From Nodosilinea sp. LVE1205-7 (GTDB taxonomy: Bacteria > Cyanobacteriota > Cyanobacteriia > Phormidesmidales > Phormidesmidaceae): 64,000 bases of DNA. Below are positions 6,125 through 62,978 of the stretch, piece by piece. The stretch lies in NCBI GenBank assembly GCA_041879365.1, contig CP089923.1:1399095-1463094 (forward strand), given 5' to 3'. Position 1 is the first letter of the stretch, and every line of letters begins with the position of its first letter. The position numbers were made by a program, and so were the translations under genes. The notes below the pieces were generated by a model, which was given only the letters and a program-made list of their open reading frames with translations, was not told the DNA's origin and made no database searches.

Positions 6125-8312
6125 ATGGCTATGGCTGTTCCACCCCAGGATCCAACTTCCCCTAACTACACCGATCCAGCCTACTACATTAATCGGGAGT
6201 CGAGCTGGCTGGAGTTTAACCGTCGAGTCCTGTGGGAAGGGCTTGATCGCCGCACTCCGTTGTTGGAAGCCCTGAAGTTTTTGGCGATCTTTAGCATTAA
6301 CCTGGACGAATACTTTATGGTGCGGGTAGCCGCCATCAAACAGCAAATCGGGGCCCAGGTCAATTCCCTCTCCGCCGATGGACTCAGCCCGCTACAGCAG
6401 CTTGCCCTAATTGGTCAAACTCTGCGGCCTATGATTAACCAGCAACACCAGGGCTTTTTCCGTCGTTTGCGGCCACAAATGGCGGGCCATGGCATCCATC
6501 TGGTTACCTACGGTGAACTGAGCCCCGATCAACGTCAGTTTATGGGGACCTACTTTGAGGAACAAATTTTTCCAGTTTTAACCCCGCTTATTGTTGATGC
6601 CGATCATCCTTTTCCCTACGTTTCTAACCTGAGCTTAAACCTGGTGGTAATTCTTAAGAGATCGCCAGACCGGTGGATCCCAGATTGCCCGGGTCAAAAT
6701 ACCCAAAGTTTTACCCCGGTTCATTACCCTGCCAGAACCCCTCTCTAGCCAACTCGATCCTCCCTGTCACTGGCTTGGAGTGCCCCTGGAGGAGGTGATC
6801 GCTCACCATCTTCAGACTTTGTTCCCGACCCTAGAGGTGCAGGGACACTACCTATTTCGCCTTACCCGTAACGCCGATTTAGTGGTGGCAGAAGCTGAAG
6901 CCGAAGATTTGATGTTAGCGATCGAGCAAGAACTCCGGAAACGCCCTCTAGGGGGATCGGCAGTGCGGTTAGAACTTCAACGCCACACCCCTAGGGCAAT
7001 TCGGATCCTGCTAAGGCGGGCCCTGGACCTGGAACCCCAGGACATTTATGCAATTGATGGTTGGCTGGGGCTGGGGGATTTAATCGCCCTCACCAGTCTA
7101 GCGATACCAAGCTTAAAGGATCCACCCTGGCTGCCGACCATTCCCCCAACCCTGGAAAAATTACCCCATCTAGTTGAGGAAGACAATAATTACCCCTCAC
7201 AGCAGGCAGAAACTTTTTTTGCCCTGGTGCGTCGCCAGGACCAGCTATTCCACCATCCTTATCATTCCTTTGTGGCCACTGTACAGCGGTTTATTATCCA
7301 GGCCGCCTATGATCCCCAGGTACTGGCCATTAAAATGACCCTTTATCGTATCGCTGGCGGCTCTCCCATCCTCAAAGCCCTGGTGGGGGCGGCGGCCAGG
7401 GGTAAGCAGGTAACGGTGCTGGTAGAACTTAAGGCTCGCTTTGGCGAAGAAAACAATATTAACTGGGCTCGCCACCTGGAACAGGCGGGTGTCCATGTTG
7501 TTTACGGTTTGATCGGCCTTAAAACCCATGCCAAGATGGTTATGGTGGTGCGCCGTGAGGGTGATACCATTACCCGTTACTGTCATTTAGGGACGGGGGA
7601 CTACAATGCTGAAACCGCCTCTGTTTATACCGATTTAAGCCTGCTTAGCGCCCAACCTGAGCTCGGATCGGACCTGACTGAGCTATTTAACTATCTCACC
7701 GGCTATTCTCGCCAGCGCAGTTATCGACAACTGTTAGTCGCCCCCCTAACCCTGCGCCAGAGCCTGGAGAACTTAATCCAGGGGGAAATAGAGCGGGTTC
7801 AACGGGGAGAAAAGGGCCAGATTATCGCCAAAATGAATACCCTGGTTGATCCAGACCTGATTGCCAGACTTTACCAGGCTTCTGCTGCCGGGGTCTCGAT
7901 TGATTTAATTGTGCGAGGAACTTGCTGCCTCCGCCCTGGTCTGGCCAACATCAGCGAGAACATTCGGGTCATCAGCATTGTTGGTCGCTTTTTAGAACAT
8001 TCCCGGATCCTTTACTTTAGGCGCGGGGGTGATGAAATTTTTTGGCTGGGCAGTGGAGACTGGACCGCCAGTAATTTAGATCGCCGGGTAGAAGTGCTGG
8101 TGCCGGTTCGCGATCGCAACCTTCAGGCCGAACTCCGATTGATTTTAGATCTGGCTCTGGCAGATCATCGTCACGCCTGGGATTTGGCTGCTGACGGTAG
8201 TTACCATCAGCGCCAACCAGCCCCCCAAACCAGCCCCTGCGACTCTCAACTCAGTCTGATCAACCGGGCCAGTCACCTAACCGTTGGAATCGACCCACGG
8301 CACCAGAGGTAA
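6125..8312 (+). CDS. ppk: Polyphosphate kinase 1, split into two ORFs by a frameshift near 6650-6700
   Basis: N-terminal ORF (…YYINRESSWLEFNRRVLWEGLDRRTPLLEALKFLAIFSINLDEYFMVRVA…) and C-terminal ORF (…QIARVKIPKVLPRFITLPE…HAKMVMVVRREGD…) together make about 720 aa of PPK1. The two HKD-like phospholipase D motifs are present. Confidence 0.9.
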
Positions 8313-24779: not shown

Positions 24780-25600
24780 AGCCTGGTCACTTACTATCGA
24801 TGGTTGGTGATTTATCAGGGGTAGGATGGGCAAAGGGCCTGAGCCCGTGCCCATCACCTGAGAGTGATCAGGCCAGGTTAAACCCTGACCTGGAGCTGGG
24901 CAGATCCTGGCTGCGATCGCGGGTGGCGGGGGTGCGATCGCAGTTGGTCGCTGGCTAGGGGGTATTGTTGGGCCTTGATGCTTAAGTTGGGGGTGGAAGG
25001 GTGGTAAGGTCTAATCTATTACGGGCAAGGGCTCCTGATCACTGATTACTGACCCCTGATTACTGTTTTTCTTACCGGGGGAATGGCGATTTCCCCCGGA
25101 CCCCCTCGCCCAGGGCGTGCCGCCGCCCTGGACCCGACGGAAGGGGTTAAAGGGTGGGCCGCCGATCGCGCTTCGCTTTGCTCTCAGCCTGTAGACCCCG
25201 GTTGCTTGAGGAGAAGCTTCCTATGGGTGGGAATCTGGGTGGTGCGGGCTCCTGATCACTGACTACTGATTCCTGACCACTCACTTCGCTTTGCTCTCAG
25301 CCTGTAGACCTGGGGAGGGGGCTACAGGCGCAGGGCGGATAGAGAAGTCTATCTAAGGGTGAGGGAGTTGGTGGCCAGGGCTTCTGACTACTGACCACTG
25401 ATTCCTGACCACTCACTTCATCGCGCTTCGTATTGCTCTCAGCTTGTAGACCTCTGCTGCTTAAGCAGGAATTTTGTCAGGGTGAGATAGGGGGTAGAGG
25501 GGACTCCTGATGACTGACCGCTGAAACGCTTGCGAATCGCTTGCTGACTGAGGGAGAGGGCTGCAAAACCGGATGCACCCAGACGTTCTCGCCAAAGCGA
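24780..25600. repeat. Left block of a composite repeat region: element A (~105 bp), double-hairpin element B, then ~130-150 bp satellite-like units containing STRR-like heptamer tracts
   Basis: 24812-24916 is repeated verbatim at 28421-28525. 25076-25200 (CCGGGGGAATGGCGATTTCCCCCGG…CCCAGGGCG…CGCCCTGG) is repeated at 28705-28830. The units CTCAGCCTGTAGACC–TGGGGAGGGGGCTACAGG–…–CTGACTACTGACCACTGATTCCTGACCACTCACTTC recur at 27660-27840 and 28830-29060. Confidence 0.6.
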
Positions 25601-27644: not shown

Positions 27645-27840
27645 TTCTGATTACTGACCACTGATTCCTGACCACTCACTTCATCGCGCCTCTCAGCTTG
27701 TAGACCTGGGGAGGGGGCTACAGGCACAGGGCGCAGGACGCAAGGCGGATAGAGAAGTCTATCTAAGGGTGAGGGAGTTGGTGGCCAGGGCTTCTGACTA
27801 CTGACCACTGATAACTGACCACTCACTTCGCTGATTACGG
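27645..27840. repeat. One satellite-like unit with heptamer (STRR-like) tracts, same family as in the flanking blocks
   Basis: …CTGATTACTGACCACTGATTCCTGACCACTCACTTC…CTCAGCTTGTAGACCTGGGGAGGGGGCTACAGG…GGATAGAGAAGTCTATCTAAGGGTGAGGGAGTTGGTGGCCAGGG…. Confidence 0.55.
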
Positions 27841-28379: not shown

Positions 28380-29110
28380 GGGGTAAAAGCTTAGATACAG
28401 AGGTCTCCTAATCACAGCGGGGTAGGATGGGCAAAGGGCCTGAGCCCGTGCCCATCACCTGAGAGTGATCAGGCCAGGTTAAACCCTGACCTGGAGCTGG
28501 GCAGATCCTGGCTGCGATCGCTATGGGCCGGGGGGACATGGATGAAGCCATGGGGGAGACTACTCTTCCCGGCCCCCCATAGGGTGTTGTCTGGCTTTGA
28601 GCTTGAAGGGTGGATGCTTGAGGAGCAGCTTCCTGTGGGTGAAAATCTGCGTGTTAAGAGCTCCTGATCGCTGATTACTGACTACTGGATTACTATTTCT
28701 TTTGCCGGGGGAATGGCGATTTCCCCCGGACCCCCTCGCCCAGGGCGTTCCGCCGCCCTGGACCCGACGGAAGGGGTTAAAGGGTGGGTGGCCGATTGCG
28801 CTTCGCATTGGTCTCAGCTTGTAGGCCTGGGGGAGGGGGCTACAGGCGCAGGGCGCAGGGCGGATAGAGAAGTCTATCTAAGGGTGAGGGAGTTGGTGGC
28901 CAGGGCTTCTGACTACTGACGACTGATAACTGACTGCTGATTCCTGACCACTCACTTCATCGCCCTTCGCTTTGATCTCAGCCTGTAGACCTGGGGGAGG
29001 GGGCTACAGGCGCAGGGCGCAAGGCGGATAGAGAAGTCTATCTAACGGTGAGGGGGTCGGTGGCCAGGGATTCACCCTATAGAACCCGCGACTAGGATCG
29101 AGCTAAGGGC
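28380..29110. repeat. Right block of the composite repeat region (element A, spacer, element B, two satellite units); direct repeat of 24780-25450
   Basis: 28421-28525 is identical to 24812-24916. 28705-28830 matches 25076-25200. 28830-29060 holds two units of the CTCAGC(C/T)TGTAGACC…GGCTACAGG…CACTCACTTC family. Confidence 0.6.
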
Positions 29111-29480
29111 AATGGTTGGGGGGCTAGTTATATTGGGCCGGACACCAGTTGATCAGATGCCCAGTTCTTACTCAAGAATGACGCATCCATGAGCAAACCC
29201 GTACCATTGCTAAAGAAATCTTGAGTTACAGAGCAGCCAGGGCGCGGGGGTATTTATACTGAAACTTTCCACCTAAGATCCCCTATTCGGCATTTAGGCT
29301 GAATTTTTTCCACCTAAGATCCCTCCAGGGGTGTTTAGGCGGACAGATTTCCACCTAAGATTCCCTATAGGGGTATTAGACGGAAAATTTCCCTCTATTT
29401 AGTAGTTGGACTGAATTGGCAACAGTGATTTTGAGAAAACTGCTGGATTTAAACCAAAGCCAAGGGAGAACGTTTAGCTT

Positions 29481-30891
29481 ATGTCTTTTGGAAAGTTTGT
29501 CTTTATCCTCCTATTTTTCACGATTTTCGATCTTCCTACCAAAGCATTTGCCGCAGAACAGCCCGTCGCGAATCTTTCACGCATTTAACCAAAAATACAG
29601 TGAGGTTGACGACTTTGTTTGTACGCTTGCTGAGCAAGGGTATTCCCACATACAAATCTCACCCGCACAACAATCGAATCCTAACAACGTCAATTCTAAT
29701 CCAAATGCCCCTGTGAATGTATGGGCAGGGCGTTATCAGCCTGTTAGCTATAGGGTGATTGACGGATTAGGATCTGAGCAAGACTTAAAGACTCTAACTG
29801 ATAAAGCCCATAGCTGTAAGATTAAGGTGATTGCCGACGTGGTTTTTAATCACATGGCGAGCATGAATCAATATAGCTCTCTAACTAACTTCCCTGACTT
29901 TCCCGATCCAAATGCTAGAGATGTCAGGAAAAATGGGTCAACCTATTTTCACAAGCAATGTGACATCAACTACAATGATGGTAACAGATCCACGGAAGTA
30001 AATTGTTGGTTGGGAGGTGCTCTTCCCGATCTCAATCAAAACAATTCAACTGTTAAGCAGGTTCAGAAAGCGCATTTGCAGAAGCTGCTGGATCTGGGGA
30101 TTGATGGCTTTCGGTTTGATGCCGCTAAACATATGCCGCCAGAAGCTATTCAAGAGTACATTAGCTACATTAATCAAGCGAGTAATAATCAGGCATGGAA
30201 TTATCTTGAGGTGATTGAAGATAATGATACGAGTGCGACCAACTATAATTTCATTGCTGCTGTAGAAGACTTTGTTCTCTATAGCTCAATGAAAAATGCA
30301 TTTACCTTTGGTGGGGATCTGCGATCATTACGAGTCCCCGTTGCCATTAACGATTCACGTAGCGTAGTATTTGGGCGAAACCATGACCAGATTAAACGTT
30401 TGAATGATGACGCTCTAAATGCCTACGATGATGAAACAGATTCTTATCTGGCGACGGCTTATGTGTTGGCTAGGCAGCAGGGCACTCCATTAATATTTGG
30501 ACCAGACAATTTAGTTCCTTATATTCCTGCTGGAGTCAAGTTTCGTCGGATCATGCATGAGAGAGGGAAGGAAGGTCGTAACGTAAAAGATAATGTTTTG
30601 CAGGTACCTGATAGTAAAACCGTCTTAATGATGGAACGGGGTAGCGAAGGATTCTTTGTTGTTAATAAGGGATTGGATAAATTTAATGTTCAGGTTATGG
30701 ACTTGACGCTCACTAATTTAGAGGGGTGTTACAGAGAACTACGAAATAACTTTACCGTCGCAATTGAGAGGAGGGCTAACAATAAGAAGTTTGTCACTCG
30801 GTGGGGAACGTGGGATCGCGGTGGGATGGAAGTTCAAGGTCGAGATGCAATATACTTCATTCGTGAACCATTTAATCAATGTGCGAAATAA
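29481..30891 (+). CDS. Secreted alpha-amylase family (GH13) protein; signal peptide is in a different frame from the catalytic domain
   Basis: GH13 conserved regions DVVFNHM and GFRFDAAKHM are present. A signal peptide MSFGKFVFILLFFTIFDLPTKAFAAEQ (29481-) reads in the +1 frame relative to the main ORF (29416-30891), so an indel near 29560 is implied. Confidence 0.7.
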
Positions 30892-31300
30892 ATAGCTGTG
30901 TTATGGCGGCTCCTGGACTAATGAGGTGTGGCCAGCCCCTTACTAGTAAGGATTTCGCGCTGGAGGATGTACCTCACTCGGACAAGAACTGCTATATAAC
31001 CAGCCGCCCAACACTGCGCTGCAACGGACGAAATCGAGTCTTGATGAGAATGCCAAAATTACTTGCTGCCGTTGAGCTTCACCGTTAGACCGCTGAATTG
31101 TCGGTTGGAGCAGTACTTGAAGCTTATCTGTTTGTTAAACTGTTTCAGTGTTCGATTGCGGAGTGTGCGAAAGTTCTTGTTTGAAACATAAAGTCTAACT
31201 ACTAAACGTTATCAATTAAGCACGTCTTAAATTCTTAAGTCTCCCAAGCACTTTAGCTAGCAATCAAAGTTAATGTTTAACGAACCTAGAAAAACTTTAG

Positions 31301-32695
31301 ATGCTTATGTATAAAGCCCTTCCAACAATCATATTTTTAAGTTCTGTTACTGCTGTGTTGTCTCTTATTGTATGGTTGTTGGGCACATGGCTTAAATTTA
31401 ATTATTTAACATCCTTACTAATCTTCACTGGCTTATTTTTGCTCATCCTATACTCTGTAGGCTCAATCAGAATAATTAATCAAGGAAACGAAGGTTTAAT
31501 AGAGCGGTTAGGGCGTTATCATCGCAAACTTGTACCGGGTTTGAACTTTATTATTCCATTTATGGACACGATTGTTTTAGAAGAAAGCACTCGTGAGAGA
31601 GTTTTTGATATAACTCCACATCTGACTATCACAAAAGATGGGGTTCCTCTAGAAATAGGTGTTGTTGTTTTTTGGCGAATCCTACAACTTGAAAGGACTT
31701 ATTATAGCATTGAGGATATTGAGGAGGGCTTAAGAAATATTATAGTTAATTCTCTTCGATTTAAAGTTGGCAGATTTGAATTGGAAAAAGTATTTTCTTT
31801 GAGAGATGACATAAGTTATAGTCTTTTAGCAATCTTAGATGATGCCACTGCTACTTGGGGAATTAAAATTACACGTATCGAAGTAGGAGATATTCTTCTC
31901 GCCAAAGCAGTGTTAGGTGAAAATTCCGACACCATTGAATTCAGCTTCCACAATGGGATCGATTGGGAAGCTTTTAGATATTCATTCAACTTGACGATTG
32001 AAAATGAAGGAGTGGAACTCAGCATTCAAGGTATAGAAGATAGAGGTGATGGAGTCCTTGTAGTTAAAGTTAGGGTTCCTTCTAACGTAAATAAAGCACA
32101 AATTTACAAAGACTTTACTACAAATTATGAAACAGCTTTTAAGGAATTGGAAGCTAGATACAGTGCTGAATTAAAAGCTAAGGAAGGTGAGATTGCAATC
32201 TACCGTGAACAAAGTTCAAGTATGTGGACGGTAATAAATTCATTGGCAAACCGACCTATAAATGTACAAGCAATTGCAAAAGCTATGAACGAAAGTACGG
32301 ATCAGAGTCAAAATATCAACATTGGTGGCAATGTCACTGGATCAACTATCAATTTGGGGGAAATCAGTGGTAGTGTTTCAAATACAGTTGCTCAATTGCC
32401 AAGTTCTCCAGATCCCAATCAACCTGGTGTAAAGGAACTACTGAGTCAGCTCCAAGAGATTATTGAGCAAGAGAAAGAACTATCATCTGAAGACAAAGCA
32501 GATCTGTTGGAGCAAGTTAAAGCTTTGGCAGAAGTGCAACAAGCTCCTGAGCAAAACCAGAAAGAAGGATTGGCACGGAAAGCCAAAAAGATGTTTGAAG
32601 CGACTTTGAAGAGTTTACCTGAAACTGCCAAAATTGTAGATGCTAGTGCTAAATTACTGCCTATGATCTTAAAGTTGCTAGGATTGCCAGTATAA
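31301..32695 (+). CDS. SPFH/band-7 (stomatin/prohibitin-like) membrane protein with a ~150 aa C-terminal extension
   Basis: Two N-terminal TM helices, then an SPFH core (…IINQGNEGLIERLGRYHRKLVPGLNFIIPFMDTIVLEESTRERVFDITPH…). The extension (NINIGGNVTGSTINLGEISGSVSN…KADLLEQVKALAEVQQ…KKMFEATLKSLPETAKIVDASAKLLPMILKLLGL) resembles N-terminal adaptor domains of cyanobacterial STAND/CHAT-type proteins. Confidence 0.75.
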   Translation: MLMYKALPTIIFLSSVTAVLSLIVWLLGTWLKFNYLTSLLIFTGLFLLILYSVGSIRIINQGNEGLIERLGRYHRKLVPGLNFIIPFMDTIVLEESTRERVFDITPHLTITKDGVPLEIGVVVFWRILQLERTYYSIEDIEEGLRNIIVNSLRFKVGRFELEKVFSLRDDISYSLLAILDDATATWGIKITRIEVGDILLAKAVLGENSDTIEFSFHNGIDWEAFRYSFNLTIENEGVELSIQGIEDRGDGVLVVKVRVPSNVNKAQIYKDFTTNYETAFKELEARYSAELKAKEGEIAIYREQSSSMWTVINSLANRPINVQAIAKAMNESTDQSQNINIGGNVTGSTINLGEISGSVSNTVAQLPSSPDPNQPGVKELLSQLQEIIEQEKELSSEDKADLLEQVKALAEVQQAPEQNQKEGLARKAKKMFEATLKSLPETAKIVDASAKLLPMILKLLGLPV

Positions 32696-32882
32696 GAAGT
32701 TTTTGAAGTTGTCATAGTCAATTAGGTTAAGTGCGCGGTCTAACAATTCAAATGCAGCGGACAGACTGAAATGCTTTCTGCTTCGTTTCGAGTCCTATGC
32801 TGCCGCTGATTTGAGCCGTTAGCAATCCACGGCGCTTCACACCTTCAGGGTGAAAGTAACTAGCTCTCGCCAATAAGTATAT

Positions 32883-34433
32883 ATGCTCATCATGTATAAC
32901 TCAGACAATTCAAGAGATAGAGCACTAGTAAGTACAATCTTCTCTGGAAAAGTGAAGTCTATGGTTAATCAATTAAGAGAGATGAACTATCAACACAGGG
33001 AGCTATACAGCCGTATTCAGGCATTTTCTTTAGATCAACCAAATACTCAGTTATTGTTTCACAAGCGATTGGCTAGGGATAATGGTTGGTCGATAGGCTA
33101 TGCTCAGAGAGTGATTGAGGAATATAAAAAGTTTGTATTTCTAGCTGTTGCAGCAGGTCATCCTGTCACGCCATCCGATCAAGTTGATCAAGTTTGGCAT
33201 TTGCATTTGACTTATACACGATCGTACTGGCAAGAGTTCTGCCCCAAAATTTTGCAGACCACATTACATCATGATCCAACTCGTGGAGGTTCATCCGAGC
33301 AATTAAAATTTGACAACTGGTATAGCAAAACACTAGAGAGTTACCAACAGTTTTTTGGACAGATTCCTCCAATTGACATTTGGCCCAAACCTAAAGACCG
33401 ATTTGGGCGCGATTTACATTTTATCCGGATCAACACTCAAGAAAATTGGGTTTTGACAAAACCCAATTTCAAAATCTCCTTCAAACCACAACTGCAACAA
33501 GGAGTAACCTTTTCCTTTTTATTTGTGCTTGCGCTTGTTGTAACTAGCTGTCAAGTAATCTCCCAAATTCCTAACCCAATCAATTTTACAGGTTCGGAAT
33601 TTTTAACGTTCTATATTTCGATAGCAGTGATAGGAATTGCTTTGGCTACCTGGCTACGTTTTTCTCTTCGCTTGCCTAACGGGATCACAAATAAACACCC
33701 TGATTTAAATGCTTACGAGATAGCTTTCTTAGCTGGCGGCAATAATCGCATGATTATGACTGCGATCACCAGTTTAGTAAAACAAGGCTATGTAGAGGTA
33801 GCAAAAGAAAAACTACCATCTTTTATTGGTAGCATAACGCAAAGAAAACTGGCTTTGAGAACAAGTATTGATAATATTACTGACCCTGTAGAAAAGGCAG
33901 TTGCACAAAATATTTTCACAACTGATGGAGGAATTGAACAGGTCTTGCAGAAATCCACAGTAGTGGAGGATAGTATTCGCTCCCGCCTACAACAATTGAG
34001 CTTGTTTCTAAGTAATGATCAGGCAGTCAAAGCACAACTTTATCCATCGTTGATTGTACTTATTCTCTTAGGGCTAGGCTTATGTAAAGTATTTGTCGGA
34101 ATTTCTCGCGATAAGCCAGTTGGTTTTCTTTTGATGTGTATGTGGGTGCTTCTAGTTTTGGGATCAAGGTTTTTTGTAAAACCATATCGTAGCCGTTATG
34201 GAGATCGCATTTTTAATGATTTAACAAATCGCTCACAAGACTTAAAAACAGCCAATAGCAGCGATTCTAAGCTTCCACTTGCGGTTGCGTTGTTTGGAGC
34301 AACAGTTCTGACAGCCGATAGTGCTTTAGCAGATTTGCATCAAATGTTGGTTTCTACAGCTGGTGGTGGCGGCGATGGCGGCGATGGTGGCGGTTGCGGT
34401 GGTGGCGGTTGTGGTGGATGCGGTGGTGGTTGA
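32883..34433 (+). CDS. Fusion of a DUF1399 (glycine-rich-domain protein, GRDP-like) N-terminal domain with a TIGR04222-like membrane domain ending in a Gly/Cys tail
   Basis: The N-terminus (LFHKRLARDNGWSIGYAQRVIEEYKKFVFLAVAAGHPVTPSDQVDQVWHLHLTYTRSYW) matches the DUF1399 core. Several TM helices follow, and the gene ends AGGGGDGGDGGGCGGGGCGGCGGG*. Confidence 0.55.
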   Translation: MLIMYNSDNSRDRALVSTIFSGKVKSMVNQLREMNYQHRELYSRIQAFSLDQPNTQLLFHKRLARDNGWSIGYAQRVIEEYKKFVFLAVAAGHPVTPSDQVDQVWHLHLTYTRSYWQEFCPKILQTTLHHDPTRGGSSEQLKFDNWYSKTLESYQQFFGQIPPIDIWPKPKDRFGRDLHFIRINTQENWVLTKPNFKISFKPQLQQGVTFSFLFVLALVVTSCQVISQIPNPINFTGSEFLTFYISIAVIGIALATWLRFSLRLPNGITNKHPDLNAYEIAFLAGGNNRMIMTAITSLVKQGYVEVAKEKLPSFIGSITQRKLALRTSIDNITDPVEKAVAQNIFTTDGGIEQVLQKSTVVEDSIRSRLQQLSLFLSNDQAVKAQLYPSLIVLILLGLGLCKVFVGISRDKPVGFLLMCMWVLLVLGSRFFVKPYRSRYGDRIFNDLTNRSQDLKTANSSDSKLPLAVALFGATVLTADSALADLHQMLVSTAGGGGDGGDGGGCGGGGCGGCGGG

Positions 34434-34906
34434 TTGAAAACCGTCTAACATTCGCTTGGAGCGGACTGACGAAAATCCTTAGTTTATTGTAGAGATTGTT
34501 AGCAGCCTCTCAAGTGGAGCGTTACCCACGAAGGTCCGCCTAAAGTCATGGGGAGACAGGCCCGCGATCGCCCACCGAACGGGGGTATTGACTGCCTTAA
34601 CTGGGATATTGGCCGAGGAGCAGCGATCGCCCCACCAATACAGCTCCTGGGGCTAGGGCTATTGCCAAGACTTAGCCCCACGGCACCGGAGATCGCAGCA
34701 GAACCCCCCGCCACCCATGAGTCACCCCACACAGCGGATACCTTCGGCCCCCTCAGACCTGGTCACCTTAAACTCACCTGAAGGCCGCACAGCCCTGCTG
34801 GATCACTGGTTGACGCTGTGGCTAGAGCGCCTGAACAACACGCCTTCTCTACCCAGCCCTTTATCGATGCTGCCCAGCAACGCCTCTGGGAACTAGCAGA
34901 GTAAAG

Positions 34907-36189
34907 TGTACCCCGTTGTCTAGACAGTTAGGGTAGGAATTTAAAGTAGAGTCGCCATTTAGTTCATTTTCTTTCTCTACGTCTCTTTTTTACATCACTA
35001 TCCTCCTGCTTACTGAAGTAGACACTGGCTGGCGGCCTATAGTTCAGTGACTGGTGTAGCCGCTCCTGGTTATAAAACCGAAAATAACGCTCCAGATTCT
35101 CAATGGCACTTGAAACACTGTCGTAGTCTTTGAGGTAGACCTCTTCGTACTTGACGGTACGCCACAGCCGTTCCACGAAAATGTTATCAAAAGCCCGGCC
35201 CTTGCCGTCTTGAGAAATTTGGATCGCTCGCCCCTCTAACGCCCCTGTAAAGGCCAGGCTGGTAAATTGACTGCCCTGATCTGAGTTAAAGATCGTAGGC
35301 TGACTGACCTGCAGCGCCTCCTCCAGGGCCACCAAACAAAAATGCACATCCATGGTATTCGATAGCTGCCAGGACAGTACATAACGGCTGTACCAGTCCA
35401 TCACCGCTACCAAATACACAAACCCATTCGCCAGCCGAATATAGGTAATATCCGTGCTCCACACCAGATCGGGGCGGTCAATACACAGCCCCCTCAGCAA
35501 GTAGGGATACCGGCGAGCGTTGTCCCCAGCTATCGTTGTCCGGGGCTTCGGATAGATCGCCTGAATCCCCATCTGACGCATGATCCGCGCCACCCGCTTA
35601 TGATTGACCGCCTCGCCCTGTTGTCTCAACCAGGCGGTCATTCGGCGCACCCCGTAAAACGGCGTCGCCGTGTATTGTTCGTCTATTCGTTCCATCAGAT
35701 GTAACTCGTAAGGGTCAATCGCCACTGGTTCGTAGTACCAGCTAGACCGCGCCAGCTCTAGTAACTCACATTGTCGACGGATACTCAGCTGAGGATGCTC
35801 TGGCTCCACCAGCCGTCGTTTATTCGCCAGCGGTAAGGCCAGATTTTTTTTCAACCAGTCCACTTCTACCTTCAGTTGACCGATTTGTTGATAAAGTTGG
35901 GCGGTTAGCTCTTCCTGGTCTTTACGGCCCTGGGCTCGCCGTGACGAAAAAATGCCAGGAAGCTCATCGAGCACCTGCTTCTTCCATTGGTTGATCTGGC
36001 TGGCATGGACGCCATACTCACTCGATAGTTCGTTCACAGTTTTTAGCCCCTTGATGGCCTCTAGAGCCACCTTAGCCTTGAAGTCCGCACCATGTCGCTT
36101 GCGCTGCATTTCCCTGTTGATCTCCGTATAGCTACTGAATTGCTGGGCAGCGACTCTATCTTATTTCCCTGTACAGTTTCCGGGGTACA
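34907..36189 (-). mobile_element. IS3-family insertion sequence (1283 bp) with terminal inverted repeats TGTACCCCG…
   Basis: The left end TGTACCCCGTTG… matches the reverse complement of the right end …CCGGGGTACA, and both ends carry AGAGTCGC. Encodes an OrfAB-type transposase. Confidence 0.8.
34964..36109 (-). CDS. IS3-family transposase (HTH OrfA part fused in-frame to the DDE integrase-core OrfB part)
   Basis: 381 aa: HTH region (…ALEAIKGLKTVNELSSEYGVHASQINQWKK…), leucine-zipper-like segment, then an rve/DDE core (…WSTDITYIRL…NSDQGSQFTS…). An A8 run (35855-35862) sits exactly where IS3 elements carry their -1 frameshift window. Confidence 0.85.
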   Translation of the reverse strand: MQRKRHGADFKAKVALEAIKGLKTVNELSSEYGVHASQINQWKKQVLDELPGIFSSRRAQGRKDQEELTAQLYQQIGQLKVEVDWLKKNLALPLANKRRLVEPEHPQLSIRRQCELLELARSSWYYEPVAIDPYELHLMERIDEQYTATPFYGVRRMTAWLRQQGEAVNHKRVARIMRQMGIQAIYPKPRTTIAGDNARRYPYLLRGLCIDRPDLVWSTDITYIRLANGFVYLVAVMDWYSRYVLSWQLSNTMDVHFCLVALEEALQVSQPTIFNSDQGSQFTSLAFTGALEGRAIQISQDGKGRAFDNIFVERLWRTVKYEEVYLKDYDSVSSAIENLERYFRFYNQERLHQSLNYRPPASVYFSKQEDSDVKKRRRERK

Positions 36190-55413: not shown

Positions 55414-56978
<1,565 letters not shown>

Positions 56979-60558: not shown

Positions 60559-61892
60559 CTAAAAGACGAACTGTAAAACCACCTGACAGCTTTTCTCCTG
60601 GGAATTAAGAGGTTGAGGATTAATCTGAATCTGGCGAATGAATTCCCGAAAGAAAAAACGCCGTTCAGCTTCCGAGAGATTTAACCAGAATTGGGGAATA
60701 GCCACCGACTGGGAAAGTTCTTGCAAATTAACTGGAGGCAGTTGGGCCCGCCGCTGTTCAAGCTGGGCAATTTCTCCCTGAAGTTTATAACGGCGCAGAG
60801 CAGCCGTATCTGGATCCAGCACTCCTTCTTGAACTAAGCCGGATAACTGTTGGAGAACCCCCTGGCGTTGCTGAATTTGGGTTTGGATCTCGGTGGCAGG
60901 GGTAACCGGGGCCCCACTCTGGGGGAACGGTTGTAATTGGGCCACGGCCTGGGGTAGATCGTGACAGATTTGTTCAATGATAGCGTTGAGGGCCCGATCG
61001 TAGGGAATGGCCCGACAGCGGGGAGAATGGGGACAATTGGTTGGCCTCAAGTAAAGGTAGGCCTGACTCTGACCCCGTCGGGTAGTAGTAGTAATGGTGA
61101 GTCTTCCCCCACAGGTCTGACAATAAACTAATCCCGCCAGGGATCGGGCAGCCCCTGCTGTTCGAGAGGGTAACTGACTGTTGCGGCGCAGTAGGCGATC
61201 AATCTGAGCGGCTTCCTCGCGACTAATAATGGCTGTATGGGTATCACGAATGACTTGGCCATCCTGGTATTGCAGGTCTCCCCGATAGACCGCATGGGTG
61301 AGCCAGCGACGGCCCGTAGAAACGGCGATGCGTTTGCCAAAACGATGATCCACAAATCGCACGGCACCGCGCAGTGATCCGTAGAGTAAAAACTCGTTAA
61401 CAAAGGCGGTAATCACCGGGGCGGTAGTGCGATCGACAAGGTAACGATCCTGGCCACGGCGATAACCGTAGGGAGCTTTACCAGGGGAGGTAGGGCCTGC
61501 AAACGATTACGGGCATGTCCAGTACGTAGTTGGCGGCGGCGCAGGCGATCGGGTAAGCTAGCCAGGGCCTGTAAACTACCAGCGGCATCAGGAATCTGCT
61601 GTGTCAGGTCGATCGCTTCTGAGGCGACACTCACAACTTGACTACCCATGGCTTGCAGGGTCTGGCAACGGGCTTCGATCTCAGCCAGGTTATCTCCCAG
61701 GGAGTCCAATCCTGCCACCAGGATCAAGTCGGCAGGATGCTCCTGGTTGTCCGCAATCAGCTGGGCCAATTGGGGACGGTAGCTGGGTTCGGCAGGTAGC
61801 CAGGTATCCTGGTAGAGTCGTTCCAGGGTATAACCCCAGGCTGGGGAGGGCGGTTGGCCGCACTCCAGGTAGTAATAGGCAACCACACGCAT
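60559..61892 (-). CDS. Serine-recombinase-family protein (resolvase-like N-domain, recombinase domain, Zn ribbon, coiled coil) lacking the canonical catalytic Ser; frameshift at a G4 run (61485-61488)
   Basis: The N-domain begins MRVVAYYYLECGQ where resolvases have …Y.RVST.Q. Downstream motifs (…GKAPYGYRRGQDRYLVD…VYCQTCGGRL…) match large serine recombinases. One added C on the coding strand joins ORFs 61413-62138 and 60559-61416. Confidence 0.6.
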
Positions 61893-62016
61893 AGGCTCAA
61901 ATGCCTGGTAAAGAGACTTTGGTAAGGCCAGAAAGGAGTGATCGGGATTGTATATCAACAAGTACCCCACTCTCCCATCACCATGGCAAGATAGGGGGTA
62001 GAGTAGGGGGCTTCTG

Positions 62017-62978
62017 GTGCAGATTACATTTCTCGGAACCAGTTCTGGCGTACCCACCCGGTCTCGCAACGTCTCCAGCGTGGCTCTGCGGTTACCCCAG
62101 CGGGGGGAAGTATGGCTGTTTGACTGCGGCGAAGGCACCCAGCACCAGTTTTTGCGTAGCGAGTTTAAGTCCAGTCAGATTCGTCGTATTTTCATCACCC
62201 ATATGCACGGCGACCATATTTTTGGGCTGATGGGGTTACTGGCCAGTTGCGGACTGGCGGGTAATCGACAGCAGTGTATCGATATCTATGGTCCCAAACC
62301 CCTGGGTGATTATTTGCAGGCCTGTCGGCGGTATTCCCACACCCACTTCACCCTCCCTATTCAGGTCCATGGGGTAGAACCTGGGGTAGTTTTTGAGGAT
62401 CGAGAATATCGAGTCCTATGCGATCGCCTGGAGCACCGGATTCCCGCCTACGGCTATCGGGTAGAAGAACGGGATCGACCTGGTCACTTCGATGTTAAAC
62501 GGGCAGAGGCCCTGGGCATTCCCCCGGTCCCATCTATGGTCAGCTGAAGCAGGGACTACAGGTGACCCTACCTAATGGTCGAAAGGTCAAGGGTACCGAT
62601 CTCTGTGGGCCTGACCTGGTAGGTCGCAAACTGGTGTACTGTACCGATACGATTTATTGCGATCGCTCCGTTGCCCTGGCCCACCAAGCCGATGTCTTAA
62701 TTCACGAAGCCACCTTTGCCCACCAGGATGCTGGACTGGCCTACGAGCGTCTGCATTCCACCTCTACCATGGCAGCCCAGGTAGCCCTTGGGGCCCAGGT
62801 GAGACAGCTCATTATGACCCACTTTAGTCCCCGCTATGCCCCCGGCAACAACGTTCAACTAAGCGATCTACTGACGGAAGCCCAGGCAATTTTCCCCAGT
62901 ACCACCATGGCCTACGACTTTATGATCTACAACATTTTACGCCAGGAGGAAAAAACTGCCCTGTCTTCGGCTTCGTAG
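62017..62978 (+). CDS. rnz: Ribonuclease Z (tRNA 3' processing endoribonuclease), frameshift near 62526-62530
   Basis: Metallo-beta-lactamase His motif ITHMHGDH and the rest of the RNase Z fold are present. The C-terminal half continues in ORF 62562-62978; one added G gives [19 protein letters not shown]. Confidence 0.85.

What the first reader, a model, noticed from the sequence alone, without database searches (positions are those of the whole stretch)
31075..34500. Each island gene is followed by a related 40-110 bp element beginning GTCTAAC and ending GTTAGCA/GTTAGAC: a cassette-like (attC-reminiscent) organisation
Downstream of the amylase (31084-31125: CCGTTAGACCGCTGAATTGTCGG… inside an AAGCTTCA…TGAAGCTT hairpin), downstream of the SPFH gene (32737-32832: GGTCTAACAATTCAAATGCAGCGGACAGACTGAAATGC…GCCGTTAGCA), and downstream of the DUF1399 gene (34441-34505: CCGTCTAACATTCGCTTGGAGCGGACTGACGAAAATCC…GATTGTTAGCA) the same motif set recurs: GTCTAACA-TTC, GCGGAC-GAC-GAAA, then a terminal GTTAGCA. 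Conserved ends with a variable middle, one per gene, is how integron attC sites and other site-specific-recombination cassettes look. GTCTAAC and GTTAGAC also fit the RYYYAAC / GTTRRRY core and inverse-core patterns. No integrase is in the window and the palindromy is imperfect, so this is a tentative lead.
Basis: seen in the sequence. Interest (0 to 1): 0.55.

Follow-up and report, generated by a model that had tools for sequence, protein, structure and literature searches.

The report
Integrase-less integron cassette array (cyanobacterium)
The three repeated elements are genuine integron attC recombination sites of the published cyanobacterial type; they mark a three-gene cassette array that keeps an attI-like end but has no integrase gene nearby, which is a known kind of element and not a new one.

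Summary
There are exactly three 85-87 nt elements, all on the + strand and each downstream of one gene of the AT-rich island: 31006-31090, 32738-32824 and 34443-34527. They match the published cyanobacterial attC model of Ghaly et al. 2021. The p7 filter HMM I rebuilt from that paper's supplement gives E-values of 3e-12, 2e-11 and 1e-5, with the next hit at E=4. A covariance model I built only from 63 attC sites of other cyanobacteria scores them at 53-62 bits (E about 1e-11 to 1e-13) and finds nothing else in 64 kb. Box layout, unpaired spacer and two bulged bases at positions 16 and 23 copy the classical attC geometry. Sites matching the same pattern lie next to intI in other cyanobacteria. 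Cassette 3 with its attC recurs at 97% identity in another array, and identity ends at the canonical G|TT crossover. Upstream, 29244-29411 resembles the intI-proximal (attI-side) repeats of complete cyanobacterial integrons. No intI or remnant lies within about 39 kb on either side. Verdict: a CALIN, most likely an integron remnant, in Nodosilinea sp. LVE1205-7. It is a new member of a known kind, of low to moderate interest.

The parts
29244..29411 (+). attI-like region. It contains three 41-bp tandem imperfect palindromes (29266-29388, unit TTTCCACCTAAGAT...TTTAGGCGGA) plus partial units on each side. It ends in the core-type box GTTGGAC (29405-29411), with the inferred crossover at G29405|T29406.
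   Evidence: Tandem repeats were found (D3). The intI-to-first-cassette regions of five complete cyanobacterial integrons (L008, L012, L027, L055, L118) each give their best hit in the whole window here, with E from 1.7e-5 to 0.56. The same architecture is visible. Function as attI is inferred, not shown.
29406..31084 (+). Cassette 1 (1,679 bp, GC 43%): GH13 alpha-amylase-family gene (29416/29482-30891) plus attC1.
   Evidence: Protein family matches are. Boundaries come from the R' boxes. The circularised R' (GTTGGAC) pairs 6/7 with R'' against 5/7 in the array. The left boundary is the least certain.
31006..31090 (+). attC1: R'' GCCCAAC, R' GTTAGAC, bulged G and A.
   Evidence: The rebuilt published profile gives 42.9 bits, E 3.4e-12. 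Independent CM R1 gives 53.4 bits, E 2.9e-11, full length. 15 of 20 model pairs form. The arms are nearly identical to an attC of Leptolyngbya sp. JSC-1 (L080:4216-4301). The fold is thermodynamically weak.
31085..32818 (+). Cassette 2 (1,734 bp, GC 37%): SPFH/Band-7 (HflK/C-like) protein gene (31307-32695) plus attC2. The cassette is mosaic: a 5' leader shared with a Nodosilinea LEGE 07298 cassette, and a 31200-32745 unit shared with metagenome contigs L140 and L141.
   Evidence: Protein family matches are. Similarity to L090 begins exactly at G|TTAGAC. The circularised R' (GTTAGAC) pairs 7/7 with R'' GTCTAAC against 5/7 in the array.
32738..32824 (+). attC2: R'' GTCTAAC, R' GTTAGCA. It is the best-folding site, a bulged hairpin on both strands.
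   Evidence: The published profile gives 40.4 bits, E 1.9e-11. CM R1 gives 61.9 bits, E 1.8e-13, against 15.7 bits on the opposite strand. The MFE fold equals the consensus structure, z -3.1 and -2.5. Copies 89-90% identical occur in metagenome arrays L137 and L130.
32819..34521 (+). Cassette 3 (1,703 bp, GC 41%): TIGR04222 / UCP032817-like membrane protein gene (32883 or 32961 to 34433) plus attC3.
   Evidence: Protein family matches are. The same gene plus attC occurs at 97% nt identity in another attC array (L144), with identity ending after GTTA of R'.
34443..34527 (+). attC3: the last site of the array. R'' GTCTAAC, R' GTTACCC, followed by host-like GC-rich DNA. It carries one mismatch in the L stem (CCTCTC where L144 has CCGCTC).
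   Evidence: The published profile gives 22.1 bits, E 9.9e-6. CM R1 gives 53.3 bits, E 3.2e-11, against 68.3 bits for the L144 copy. The MFE fold does not reproduce the hairpin, so the site is weakened.
34907..36189 (-). IS3-family insertion sequence 380 bp beyond the end of the array. It is a neighbour, not part of the cassette system.
   Evidence: NCBIfam transpos_IS3 gives 321.6 bits. Pfam finds rve and HTH_21. Terminal inverted repeats are read from the sequence (I7, 49).

Best explanation
The island at about 29.24-34.53 kb is the cassette end of a chromosomal integron in the filamentous cyanobacterium Nodosilinea sp. LVE1205-7. It consists of an attI-like region followed by three co-oriented gene cassettes (amylase-family, SPFH, TIGR04222 membrane protein), each ending in an attC site of the cyanobacterial type. 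The integron-integrase gene is missing, so by IntegronFinder's definition the locus is a CALIN.

Mechanism, from established knowledge of integrons and not shown here: the bottom strand of each attC folds into a hairpin with R and L boxes, an unpaired central spacer and two extrahelical bases. IntI recognises that shape and cuts at the conserved AAC, which is G|TT on the top strand of R'. attC x attC recombination excises a cassette as a circle, and attI x attC recombination inserts it.

Inference: the cassettes were assembled by such reactions, probably in or from lower-GC cyanobacteria. intI was later lost from the attI side. The array is now static unless an IntI encoded elsewhere in the genome acts in trans. 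attC2 looks competent, attC1 is weaker, and attC3 is damaged.
For: - Fit to the published model. The consensus of the Ghaly 2021 'Cyanobacteria' attC model is GcCUAAC AAgUC GcU G cAGCGG A Cggg ... gccG CCGCUg AgC UuaGuC GUUAGgC, and all three elements fit it. Its rebuilt p7 profile hits only them.
- Independent model. CM R1, built from 63 attC of other cyanobacteria, gives 61.9, 53.4 and 53.3 bits, full length, + strand only; the next hit has E=4.
- Structure is supported by covariation in the family. 87.9% of cells pair against 73.9% when shuffled and 24-45% when slid, and 188 cells change on both sides. A sequence-only alignment of 144 sites gives the same picture.
- The unpaired positions 16 and 23 are those of the EHBs G16 and T23 of attCaadA7 (PMC5027507).
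- Link to IntI. The pattern TAAC..TGNANCGGA..CCGNTNA..CGTTAG gave at least 120 loci, about half of them cyanobacterial. Ten of them carry an IntI with about 50% identity to IntI1 within 8 kb, divergently placed upstream of the sites.
- Mobility. Cassette 3 plus attC3 recurs in array L144, with identity ending at R' GTTA. Similarity of the start of cassette 2 to an L090 cassette begins exactly at G|TTAGAC. R' of circularised cassettes 1 and 2 pairs better with their own R''.
- The attI-like region is supported.
- Foreign composition: cassettes are 37-43% GC against 53% in the flanks.
- No IntI was found: Pfam on 30 ORFs, tblastn with IntI1 and five cyanobacterial IntI, and no PF00589 or attC in 10 kb beyond each end.
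Against: - No recombinase is present, so current activity is unproven.
- attC1 and attC3 do not fold better than shuffled sequence.
- R' of attC2 (GTTAGCA) and of attC3 (GTTACCC) depart from GTTRRRY.
- The full published CM with its 61-bit cut-off, and IntegronFinder's attC model, could not be run.
- The attI assignment rests on weak sequence similarity (best E 1.7e-5). Similar repeats also occur inside an array (L091) and in loci without intI within 8 kb.
- Two cassettes are not shared as canonical units. The SPFH unit shared with L140 runs from one GTCTAAC to R'' of attC2, not R' to R'. The 5' leader of cassette 3 differs from that in L144.
- At about 1.7 kb the cassettes are longer than, from my recollection, is typical.
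Confidence: 0.85

Rival explanations
1. The array is a CALIN made de novo by an IntI encoded elsewhere in the genome, which inserted cassettes at a secondary chromosomal GTT/GNT site. On this reading no integron platform ever stood here.
For: No intI or remnant was found within about 39 kb on either side. CALINs made in this way are one of the origins discussed by Cury et al. 2016 (PMC4889954). The array ends directly in host-like DNA at G|TTACCC.
Against: The 170 bp upstream of cassette 1 are the best match in the window to the intI-proximal regions of five complete cyanobacterial integrons. That region shares the low GC of the island. This is not expected for a random secondary site.
Confidence: 0.12
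2. The array is a working part of a split integron. An intact intI/attI platform lies elsewhere on the 3.79-Mb chromosome, and it exchanges cassettes with this array in trans.
For: Half of CALINs are in replicons that also encode IntI (PMC4889954). attC2 is structurally intact. Cassettes 2 and 3 have 97-98% identical copies in other contexts, which implies recent mobility. Another Nodosilinea genome carries intI next to this attC type (L012).
Against: The rest of the genome could not be searched with these tools. attC3 carries a stem mismatch relative to its L144 twin. The IntI ORF in L012 itself looks interrupted: only a 202-aa ORF was recovered.
Confidence: 0.3
3. The elements are lineage-specific REP-like repeats or intrinsic terminators that happen to follow these genes.
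For: They are hairpins placed just after stop codons.
Against: There are only three copies in 64 kb plus 20 kb of flanks, all inside the AT-rich island, and none after core genes. They have no T-tract, and the terminator scan does not call them. The conserved bulges and strand asymmetry (62 against 16 bits) are attC features. The family is associated with IntI in other genomes.
Confidence: 0.02
4. The elements are miniature inverted-repeat transposable elements (MITEs) with GTCTAAC/GTTAGAC termini.
For: They have terminal inverted 7-mers and a uniform size of about 86 nt.
Against: There are no target-site duplications and no dispersed identical copies. The three sites belong to three different arm subtypes, each shared with other genera. 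Covariation preserves the pairing, not the sequence.
Confidence: 0.01

Closest known systems
Cyanobacterial chromosomal integron attC sites (taxon-specific covariance model 'Cyanobacteria' of Ghaly et al. 2021, Commun Biol, PMC8352920)
   Same: Length is 85-87 nt against a model length of 87. The consensus boxes, the 5-6 nt unpaired spacers, the unpaired G16 and A23, and the L-stem sequence cAGCGG/CCGCUg all agree. The model's own sequence profile hits all three sites.
   Different: attC1 has R'' GCCCAAC where the model prefers U at position 4. attC3 has a G-to-T change in the L' stem and an R' of GTTACCC. The full CM score against the 61-bit cut-off was not computed.
CALIN, cluster of attC sites lacking an integron-integrase (Cury et al. 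2016, IntegronFinder, PMC4889954)
   Same: There are at least two attC sites on one strand, less than 4 kb apart, and no intI nearby. The array is small (83% of CALINs have fewer than six sites). The cassettes are not resistance genes. An IS lies close by.
   Different: This one keeps a recognisable attI-side region. It therefore looks like an integron that lost intI and not like a stray cluster. Most CALINs have no recognisable intI pseudogene, and none is seen here either.
Classical mobile-integron attC, for example attCaadA7 (Nivina et al. 2016, PMC5027507)
   Same: Geometry is the same: a 7-nt R box, 5-nt spacer, 3 bp, an extrahelical base at 16, 6 bp, an extrahelical base at 23, then stem and variable loop. 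The first 12 nt of attC2 (GTCTAACAATTC) are, from my memory of the aadA7 sequence, the same as in attCaadA7.
   Different: The first extrahelical base on the bottom strand would be C (top-strand G16), not G. The host is a cyanobacterium. The cassettes are about 1.7 kb and carry no resistance genes.
attI sites with accessory integrase-binding direct repeats (attI1 with DR1/DR2; own knowledge)
   Same: Direct repeats carrying core-site-like words (TTAGGC/TTAGAC) lie immediately upstream of the G|TT junction with the first cassette.
   Different: Here there are three to four 41-bp units, each itself an imperfect palindrome. IntI binding is untested. Similar units also occur away from intI in some loci.

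Membership tests
Integron attC site | Terminal inverted boxes: R'' (RYYYAAC) at the 5' end and R' (GTTRRRY) at the 3' end on the top strand. | tested here: met
   The boxes are attC1 GCCCAAC/GTTAGAC, attC2 GTCTAAC/GTTAGCA and attC3 GTCTAAC/GTTACCC. The invariant AAC and GTT are present in all three. The last 2-3 positions of R' deviate in attC2 and attC3, as expected for chimeric R' boxes whose last six bases belong to whatever follows.
Integron attC site | Imperfect hairpin: L''/L' stem, unpaired central spacer and variable terminal loop. | tested here: met
   15, 17 and 15 of 20 consensus pairs form in attC1, attC2 and attC3. The MFE fold of attC2 equals the consensus. The stability of attC1 and attC3 is no better than that of shuffled sequence.
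Integron attC site | Extrahelical bases on the R''/L'' arm that make the two strands unequal. | tested here: met
   Unpaired G at position 16 and A at position 23 occur in all three sites and in 139/144 and 143/144 family members. These are the positions of G16 and T23 in attCaadA7. CM scores are 62 bits on the + strand against 16 bits on the - strand for attC2.
Integron attC site | Score above threshold with a curated attC covariance model (IntegronFinder attc_4, or the Ghaly 2021 CM with a 61-bit cut-off). | tested here: inconclusive
   Only the p7 filter HMM of the Ghaly CM could be rebuilt and run. It gave 42.9, 40.4 and 22.1 bits, E 3e-12 to 1e-5. My own CM gave 53-62 bits. The curated full models could not be run with these tools.
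Integron attC site | One site per cassette, downstream of and co-oriented with the ORF, in an array. | tested here: met
   There are three ORFs and three sites, all on the + strand. The sites start 115, 43 and 10 nt after the stop codons.
Integron attC site | Cassette boundary at G|TT of R': the same cassette is found in other arrays with identity ending at that point. | tested here: met
   For cassette 3 against L144, identity ends after GTTA. For the start of cassette 2 against L090, similarity begins at G|TTAGAC. Exceptions: the SPFH unit shared with L140 ends at R'' instead, and the 5' leader of cassette 3 differs from L144.
Integron attC site | Recombined by an integron integrase as folded single-stranded DNA. 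| not testable with these tools
   This needs an in vivo or in vitro recombination assay.
Complete integron | An intI gene (tyrosine recombinase with the IntI-specific insertion) adjacent to the array. | tested here: not met
   No Phage_integrase hit was found in 30 ORFs. tblastn with IntI1 gave best E 0.46, and with five cyanobacterial IntI best E 0.51, with none at 27-29.4 kb. No PF00589 appears among gene kb beyond either end.
Complete integron | An attI site at the integrase-proximal end of the array. | tested here: inconclusive
   Region 29244-29411 is the top hit in the window for the intI-proximal regions of five complete cyanobacterial integrons, and it ends in GTTGGAC. No cyanobacterial attI has been defined experimentally to my knowledge, and I found no paper on it.
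Complete integron | A cassette promoter Pc upstream of the array. | tested here: inconclusive
   The consensus scan finds no more promoter-like sites than in shuffled sequence, and none in 29100-29480. Cyanobacterial promoters may not fit the scan.
CALIN | At least two attC sites clustered (less than 4 kb apart) with no intI nearby. | tested here: met
   There are three sites 1.65-1.62 kb apart, and no intI within about 39 kb on either side.
REP element / intrinsic terminator | Many copies after unrelated core genes; for terminators, a GC-rich stem followed by a T-run. | tested here: not met
   No copies occur outside the island in 64 kb plus 20 kb of flanks. The terminator scan does not call them.

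The most novel reading that the evidence does not exclude
Two things are not explained by the textbook cassette model.

(1) Cyanobacterial integrons may carry an undescribed kind of attI region: three to four tandem units of about 40 bp. Each unit is an imperfect palindrome of core-site-like words (TTTCnGnnTAA...TTAGRCnGAAA), which may act as a multi-site IntI landing pad or as a regulatory array. This region survives here without intI.

(2) The cassettes are mosaics whose recent exchange points are not all at R'. The 98%-identical SPFH unit is bounded by GTCTAAC on both sides, that is by R''-type boxes. The leader of cassette 3 has been swapped. This hints at top-strand or R''-side recombination, or at a leader-exchange process.
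Probability: 0.25. Interest if true: 0.5.

Novelty: new member of a known kind. Interest (0 to 1): 0.27.

Why it matters
It shows that a reader working from raw sequence alone can spot a cassette array. It also adds a documented example of an integrase-less integron remnant in a filamentous cyanobacterium (Nodosilinea), carrying non-resistance cargo: an amylase-family enzyme, an SPFH protein and a TIGR04222 membrane protein.

Integrons, CALINs and the cyanobacterial attC type are all already described, so the find itself is ordinary. The side observations could be useful starting points for work on how non-proteobacterial integrons recognise attI and how cassettes are remodelled. These are the conserved tandem palindromes on the attI side and the cassettes with non-canonical exchange points.

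Tried and rejected
- Rfam at gathering threshold found only four tRNAs and no family for the elements or for the 41-bp repeats.
- My first crude RYYYAAC...GTTRR scan with duplex energies ranked attC2 first but mixed in many coding-sequence false positives, so I dropped it in favour of profiles.
- A fixed-spacing pattern missed all three sites because of 1-nt indels in the spacer.
- Exact-protein look-ups of the SPFH gene, the third gene and the IS transposase failed because my start codons or the sequence differ from the gene calls.
- The metagenome scan did not contain the source genome, so other attC sites or an intI of the same genome could not be found that way.
- The cassette proteins have no homologues in the 133 attC loci collected.
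- PADLOC gives no defence-system assignment for cassettes 2 and 3, and only a generic GlgB-like hit for the amylase.
- There is no synteny between this locus and the integron of Nodosilinea FACHB-131, so in-situ loss of intI could not be shown by comparison.
- A possible extra half-attC just after attC1 (CCGCTGAATTGTCGGTTGGAG) scores below every threshold. It is better explained as the conserved 5' end of cassette 2, which it shares with L090.
- The 15-nt inverted repeat 29398-29412 / 31192-31206 is by my estimate about what chance gives in 8 kb, and is recorded only as unexplained.

Full report
**What is in the sequence.** The window looks like a cyanobacterial chromosome: GC is about 53% and HIP1 GCGATCGC sites are visible. 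Between about 29.2 and 34.5 kb, GC drops to 33-45%. This island holds three genes on the + strand:
- a GH13 alpha-amylase-family protein (29416-30891);
- an SPFH/Band-7 protein (31307-32695);
- a TIGR04222 / UCP032817-like membrane protein (32883 or 32961 to 34433).

An IS3-family insertion sequence lies just beyond, at 34907-36189. The host can be named. A 100% identical amylase is recorded on a 3,787,723-bp NCBI contig of 'Nodosilinea sp. LVE1205-7'. The same DNA is JGI 3300045937 contig Ga0496538_1457.

**Checking the observation.** Element 2 (32738-32824) folds on both strands into a long hairpin with two single-base bulges (z -3.1 and -2.5).

The decisive comparison came from the literature. 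Cury et al. 2016 report integrons in Cyanobacteria and define CALINs (PMC4889954). Ghaly et al. 2021 built a taxon-specific attC covariance model for Cyanobacteria from 51 sites, and the model file is in their Supplementary Data 1 (PMC8352920). The listed cut-off appears to be 61 bits. The model is 87 positions long. Its consensus is GcCUAAC AAgUC GcU G cAGCGG A Cggg [loop] gccG CCGCUg AgC UuaGuC GUUAGgC, with positions 16 (G) and 23 (A) unpaired. That is exactly the pattern in the window.

I retyped the model's p7 filter HMM and ran nhmmer without filters on both strands of the window. There were three hits:

| Site | Coordinates | Bits | E-value |
|---|---|---|---|
| attC1 | 31007-31090 | 42.9 | 3.4e-12 |
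| attC2 | 32738-32822 | 40.4 | 1.9e-11 |
| attC3 | 34444-34524 | 22.1 | 9.9e-6 |

All three are on the + strand, and the next hit has E=4.4. So the elements are real, number exactly three, and are 85-87 nt long.

**Independent, structure-aware test.** A pattern taken from the conserved positions (TAACN{7,8}TGNANCGGAN{29,59}CCGNTNANNNNNNNCGTTAG) has no chance matches in shuffles of the window. By my own estimate only a few such hits are expected by chance. About half of the loci are cyanobacteria (Nodosilinea, Leptolyngbya, Microcystis, Nostoc, Pseudanabaena and others). The rest are Acidobacteriota, Planctomycetota and Proteobacteria.

The published profile found 217 sites in these loci, usually several per locus on one strand. 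From these I took 63 full-length sites of cyanobacterial loci only, with none from the window. I aligned them with MAFFT (A1), imposed the published pairing, and counted pairs:
- 87.9% of cells pair, against 73.9% after shuffling partners and 24-45% when the partner is slid by one to three columns;
- 13 of 20 pairs have changes on both sides, in 188 cells;
- the covariation score is 0.375 against 0.120 when shuffled.

A sequence-only HMM alignment of 144 sites gave the same picture. The pattern itself fixed some columns, but the covarying pairs (14:91, 15:90, 18:88, 20:86, 25:82, 26:81) were not fixed by it.

The covariance model built from A1 (R1) was run with filters off:

| Site | Coordinates | Bits | E-value |
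|---|---|---|---|
| attC2 | 32738-32824 | 61.9 | 1.8e-13 |
| attC1 | 31006-31090 | 53.4 | 2.9e-11 |
| attC3 | 34443-34527 | 53.3 | 3.2e-11 |

All three matches are full length. The reverse strand of attC2 scores only 15.7 bits, and nothing else scores below E=4. No site exists in the 10 kb beyond either end of the window. Each of the three sites belongs to a different arm subtype that recurs in other genera: attC1 resembles Leptolyngbya JSC-1 L080:4216, attC2 resembles L027, L008 and L103, and attC3 resembles L014:5755 and L091:531.

**Why these are attC sites and not merely hairpins.**
- The layout is a 7-nt R box, a 5-6 nt unpaired spacer, 3 bp, a bulge at 16, 6 bp, a bulge at 23, then stem and loop. 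This is the layout of classical attC sites. Nivina et al. 2016 name the extrahelical bases of attCaadA7 G16 and T23 (PMC5027507). The cyanobacterial top-strand G16/A23 give bottom-strand C16/T23.
- In ten of the pattern-selected loci an IntI homologue lies within the 8-kb locus. It shows 48-59% identity to IntI1 over nearly its full length, with E from 1e-84 to 1e-114. In the five cyanobacterial loci I inspected it lies upstream of the sites and is divergently oriented. These include Nodosilinea sp. FACHB-131 (L012), Microcystis aeruginosa (L027) and Pseudanabaenales (L118).
- The cassette boundaries behave canonically. Cassette 3 with its attC recurs at 97% nucleotide identity in a different array on metagenome contig L144. 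That contig has GC 56%, four attC sites on one strand, and toxin-antitoxin-like cassettes upstream. Identity runs through the whole attC and stops right after GTTA of R'.
- The first 48 nt of cassette 2 are about 85% identical to the start of a cassette in Nodosilinea sp. LEGE 07298. The similarity begins exactly at G|TTAGAC even though the preceding attC arms differ.
- When cassettes 1 and 2 are circularised on paper, their R' boxes pair better with their own R'' (6/7 and 7/7 against 5/7 in the array). Cassette 3 is unchanged at 5/7.
- Sites 89-90% identical to attC2 occur in low-GC metagenome arrays next to unrelated genes.

**The 5' end of the array.** Upstream of the amylase gene lie three 41-bp tandem repeats (29266-29388; D3; absent elsewhere in the window). 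Each is an imperfect palindrome (TTTCCACCTAAGAT ... TTTAGGCGGA). They are followed by a core-type box, GTTGGAC, at 29405-29411. In five complete cyanobacterial integrons, the stretch between intI and the first cassette has the same look: units of about 40 bp of the form TTTCnGnnTAA...TTAGRCnGAAA, ending in GTTAGCC, GTTGGAC or GTTAGAC.

I used each of those five stretches as a single-sequence nhmmer query against the whole window. Every one found its best hit inside 29244-29407, with E of 1.7e-5, 6e-4, 0.011, 0.079 and 0.56. I therefore read 29244-29411 as the attI side of an integron.

That reading is an inference, for three reasons. No cyanobacterial attI has been characterised that I could find. 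Similar units also occur just after an attC inside an array (L091). They also occur upstream of arrays in loci with no intI within 8 kb.

**The missing integrase.**
- Pfam scans of 30 ORFs found no tyrosine recombinase.
- tblastn of IntI1 gave best E 0.46. Five cyanobacterial IntI proteins gave best E 0.51 and no hit at all at 27-29.4 kb.
- The gene calls for 10 kb beyond each window end list no PF00589.
- The only recombinase-like genes are the IS3 transposase and fragments of a serine recombinase at about 60.5-62.1 kb.

Immediately left of the attI-like region, GC rises. A host repeat family begins there: 28419-29073 is 73-83% identical to 24818-25453 and is related to 27647-27819. Loss of intI by deletion next to such repeats is plausible but not shown. 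The integron of Nodosilinea FACHB-131 is at a different locus, so no direct comparison was possible.

**How it most likely works.**
- *Established:* the elements are attC sites by sequence profile, structure, covariation, context and boundary behaviour. The locus meets the CALIN definition.
- *From established integron biology (PMC5027507, PMC4889954):* IntI binds the folded bottom strand, guided by the extrahelical bases, and exchanges strands at AAC/G|TT. Cassettes are excised as circles and inserted at attI.
- *Inferred:* these three cassettes were assembled that way. Their low GC and their relatives point to lower-GC cyanobacteria as sources: cassette 3 is 74-75% identical to widespread Microcystis genes, and the nearest amylase homologue with context is an ordinary chromosomal gene without attC in L145. 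The platform then lost intI. The array can now change only if an IntI is supplied in trans.

attC2 looks fully competent. attC1 forms only the 9-bp bulged L stem, with weak energy. attC3 carries a G-to-T change in the L' stem relative to its twin in L144 (53.3 against 68.3 bits) and does not fold canonically. The assembly shows many split genes, so a sequencing error cannot be excluded. No convincing promoter precedes the array. Expression is therefore open.

**What does not fit neatly.**
- The SPFH gene has 98.4% identical copies on two short metagenome contigs (L140, L141). The shared segment is window 31200-32745. It starts right after a GTCTAAC at 31193-31199 and ends just after the GTCTAAC(A) that is R'' of attC2. 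In L140 it continues into a different, half-missing attC. The unit is thus flanked by direct GTCTAAC repeats, not by R' boxes.
- The 65-nt leader of cassette 3 is unrelated to the leader in L144.

The cassettes are therefore mosaics. Whether the cause is R''-side (top-strand) recombination, insertion into an ORF-less cassette, or ordinary homologous exchange is unresolved.

**Comparison with known systems, and verdict.** The elements are members of the cyanobacterial attC family and the locus is a CALIN / integrase-less integron remnant. It fails the definition of a complete integron because intI is absent. The REP, terminator and MITE readings are rejected: there are no copies outside the island, no T-runs, no target duplications, and covariation preserves the structure and not the sequence. 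The finding is correct in spirit and is a good catch from raw sequence, but it belongs to a known kind. Interest is low to moderate, and rests mainly on the attI-side repeats and the non-canonical exchange points.

Noticed in passing
window 29244-29411; L012 5140-5330, L118 3380-3600, L008 2500-2800, L027 6770-6925, L055 1890-2090: Tandem imperfect palindromes of about 40 bp (TTTCnGnnTAA...TTAGRCnGAAA) lie between intI and the first cassette in five complete cyanobacterial integrons. They also survive here without intI. This may be an undescribed attI architecture or a regulatory array.
   Followed up: partly
window 31193-31199 and 32738-32745; L140 138-1684, L141 27-1573: The SPFH gene unit is shared at 98.4% identity with two metagenome contigs, but only over 31200-32745. 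It is bounded on both sides in the window by GTCTAAC (R''-type boxes), not by R'. In L140 it is followed by a different, half-missing attC.
   Followed up: partly
window 32819-32883 vs L144 7859-7927: The 5' leader of cassette 3 is unrelated to the leader of the otherwise 97%-identical cassette in L144. The breakpoint lies just upstream of the ATG at 32883.
   Followed up: partly
window 29398-29412 and 31192-31206: A 15-nt inverted repeat (14/15) links the attI/cassette-1 junction (TTTAGTAG|TTGGACT) with the GTCTAAC at the left end of the SPFH unit. By my estimate, one such match in 8 kb is about what chance would give.
   Followed up: partly
window 24818-25453, 27647-27819, 28419-29073 (with internal 115-nt direct repeat 28795-28909 / 28959-29073): A GC-rich non-coding host repeat family has three copies around the adenosine deaminase gene. 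The last copy abuts the left edge of the island and might have mediated a deletion.
   Followed up: partly
window 34907-36189: An IS3-family insertion sequence with a fused 381-aa transposase ORF and imperfect terminal inverted repeats of about 40 bp. It appears to interrupt a small host ORF 380 bp after the last attC.
   Followed up: partly
L123 and L125 (source contig around the window), e.g. window 6125-8312, 55414-56978: Many genes of the source assembly are split into pieces: UPF0182 into four, polyphosphate kinase into two, HetR into two, and a class II tRNA synthetase into two. This suggests indel errors of a long-read MAG, or pseudogenes. Single-base details such as the attC3 mismatch need caution.
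   Followed up: no
window 31900-32695 (C-terminal half of the SPFH protein): The C-terminal 55% of the SPFH cassette protein is about 60% identical to a region of many cyanobacterial pentapeptide-repeat proteins, so the protein is a domain fusion.
   Followed up: no
window 34353-34432: The third cassette gene ends in a Gly/Cys-rich tail encoded by overlapping GGTGGYGGC-type tandem repeats (D1).
   Followed up: no
window 60559-62138: Fragments of a large serine recombinase (Resolvase, Recombinase, Zn_ribbon_recom) lie in two adjacent ORFs on the - strand. They are unrelated to integron integrases.
   Followed up: no
L012 5321-6326: The IntI ORF next to the attC in Nodosilinea sp. FACHB-131 appears interrupted. 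Only a 202-aa ORF was recovered around a tblastn match that spans aa 15-329.
   Followed up: no
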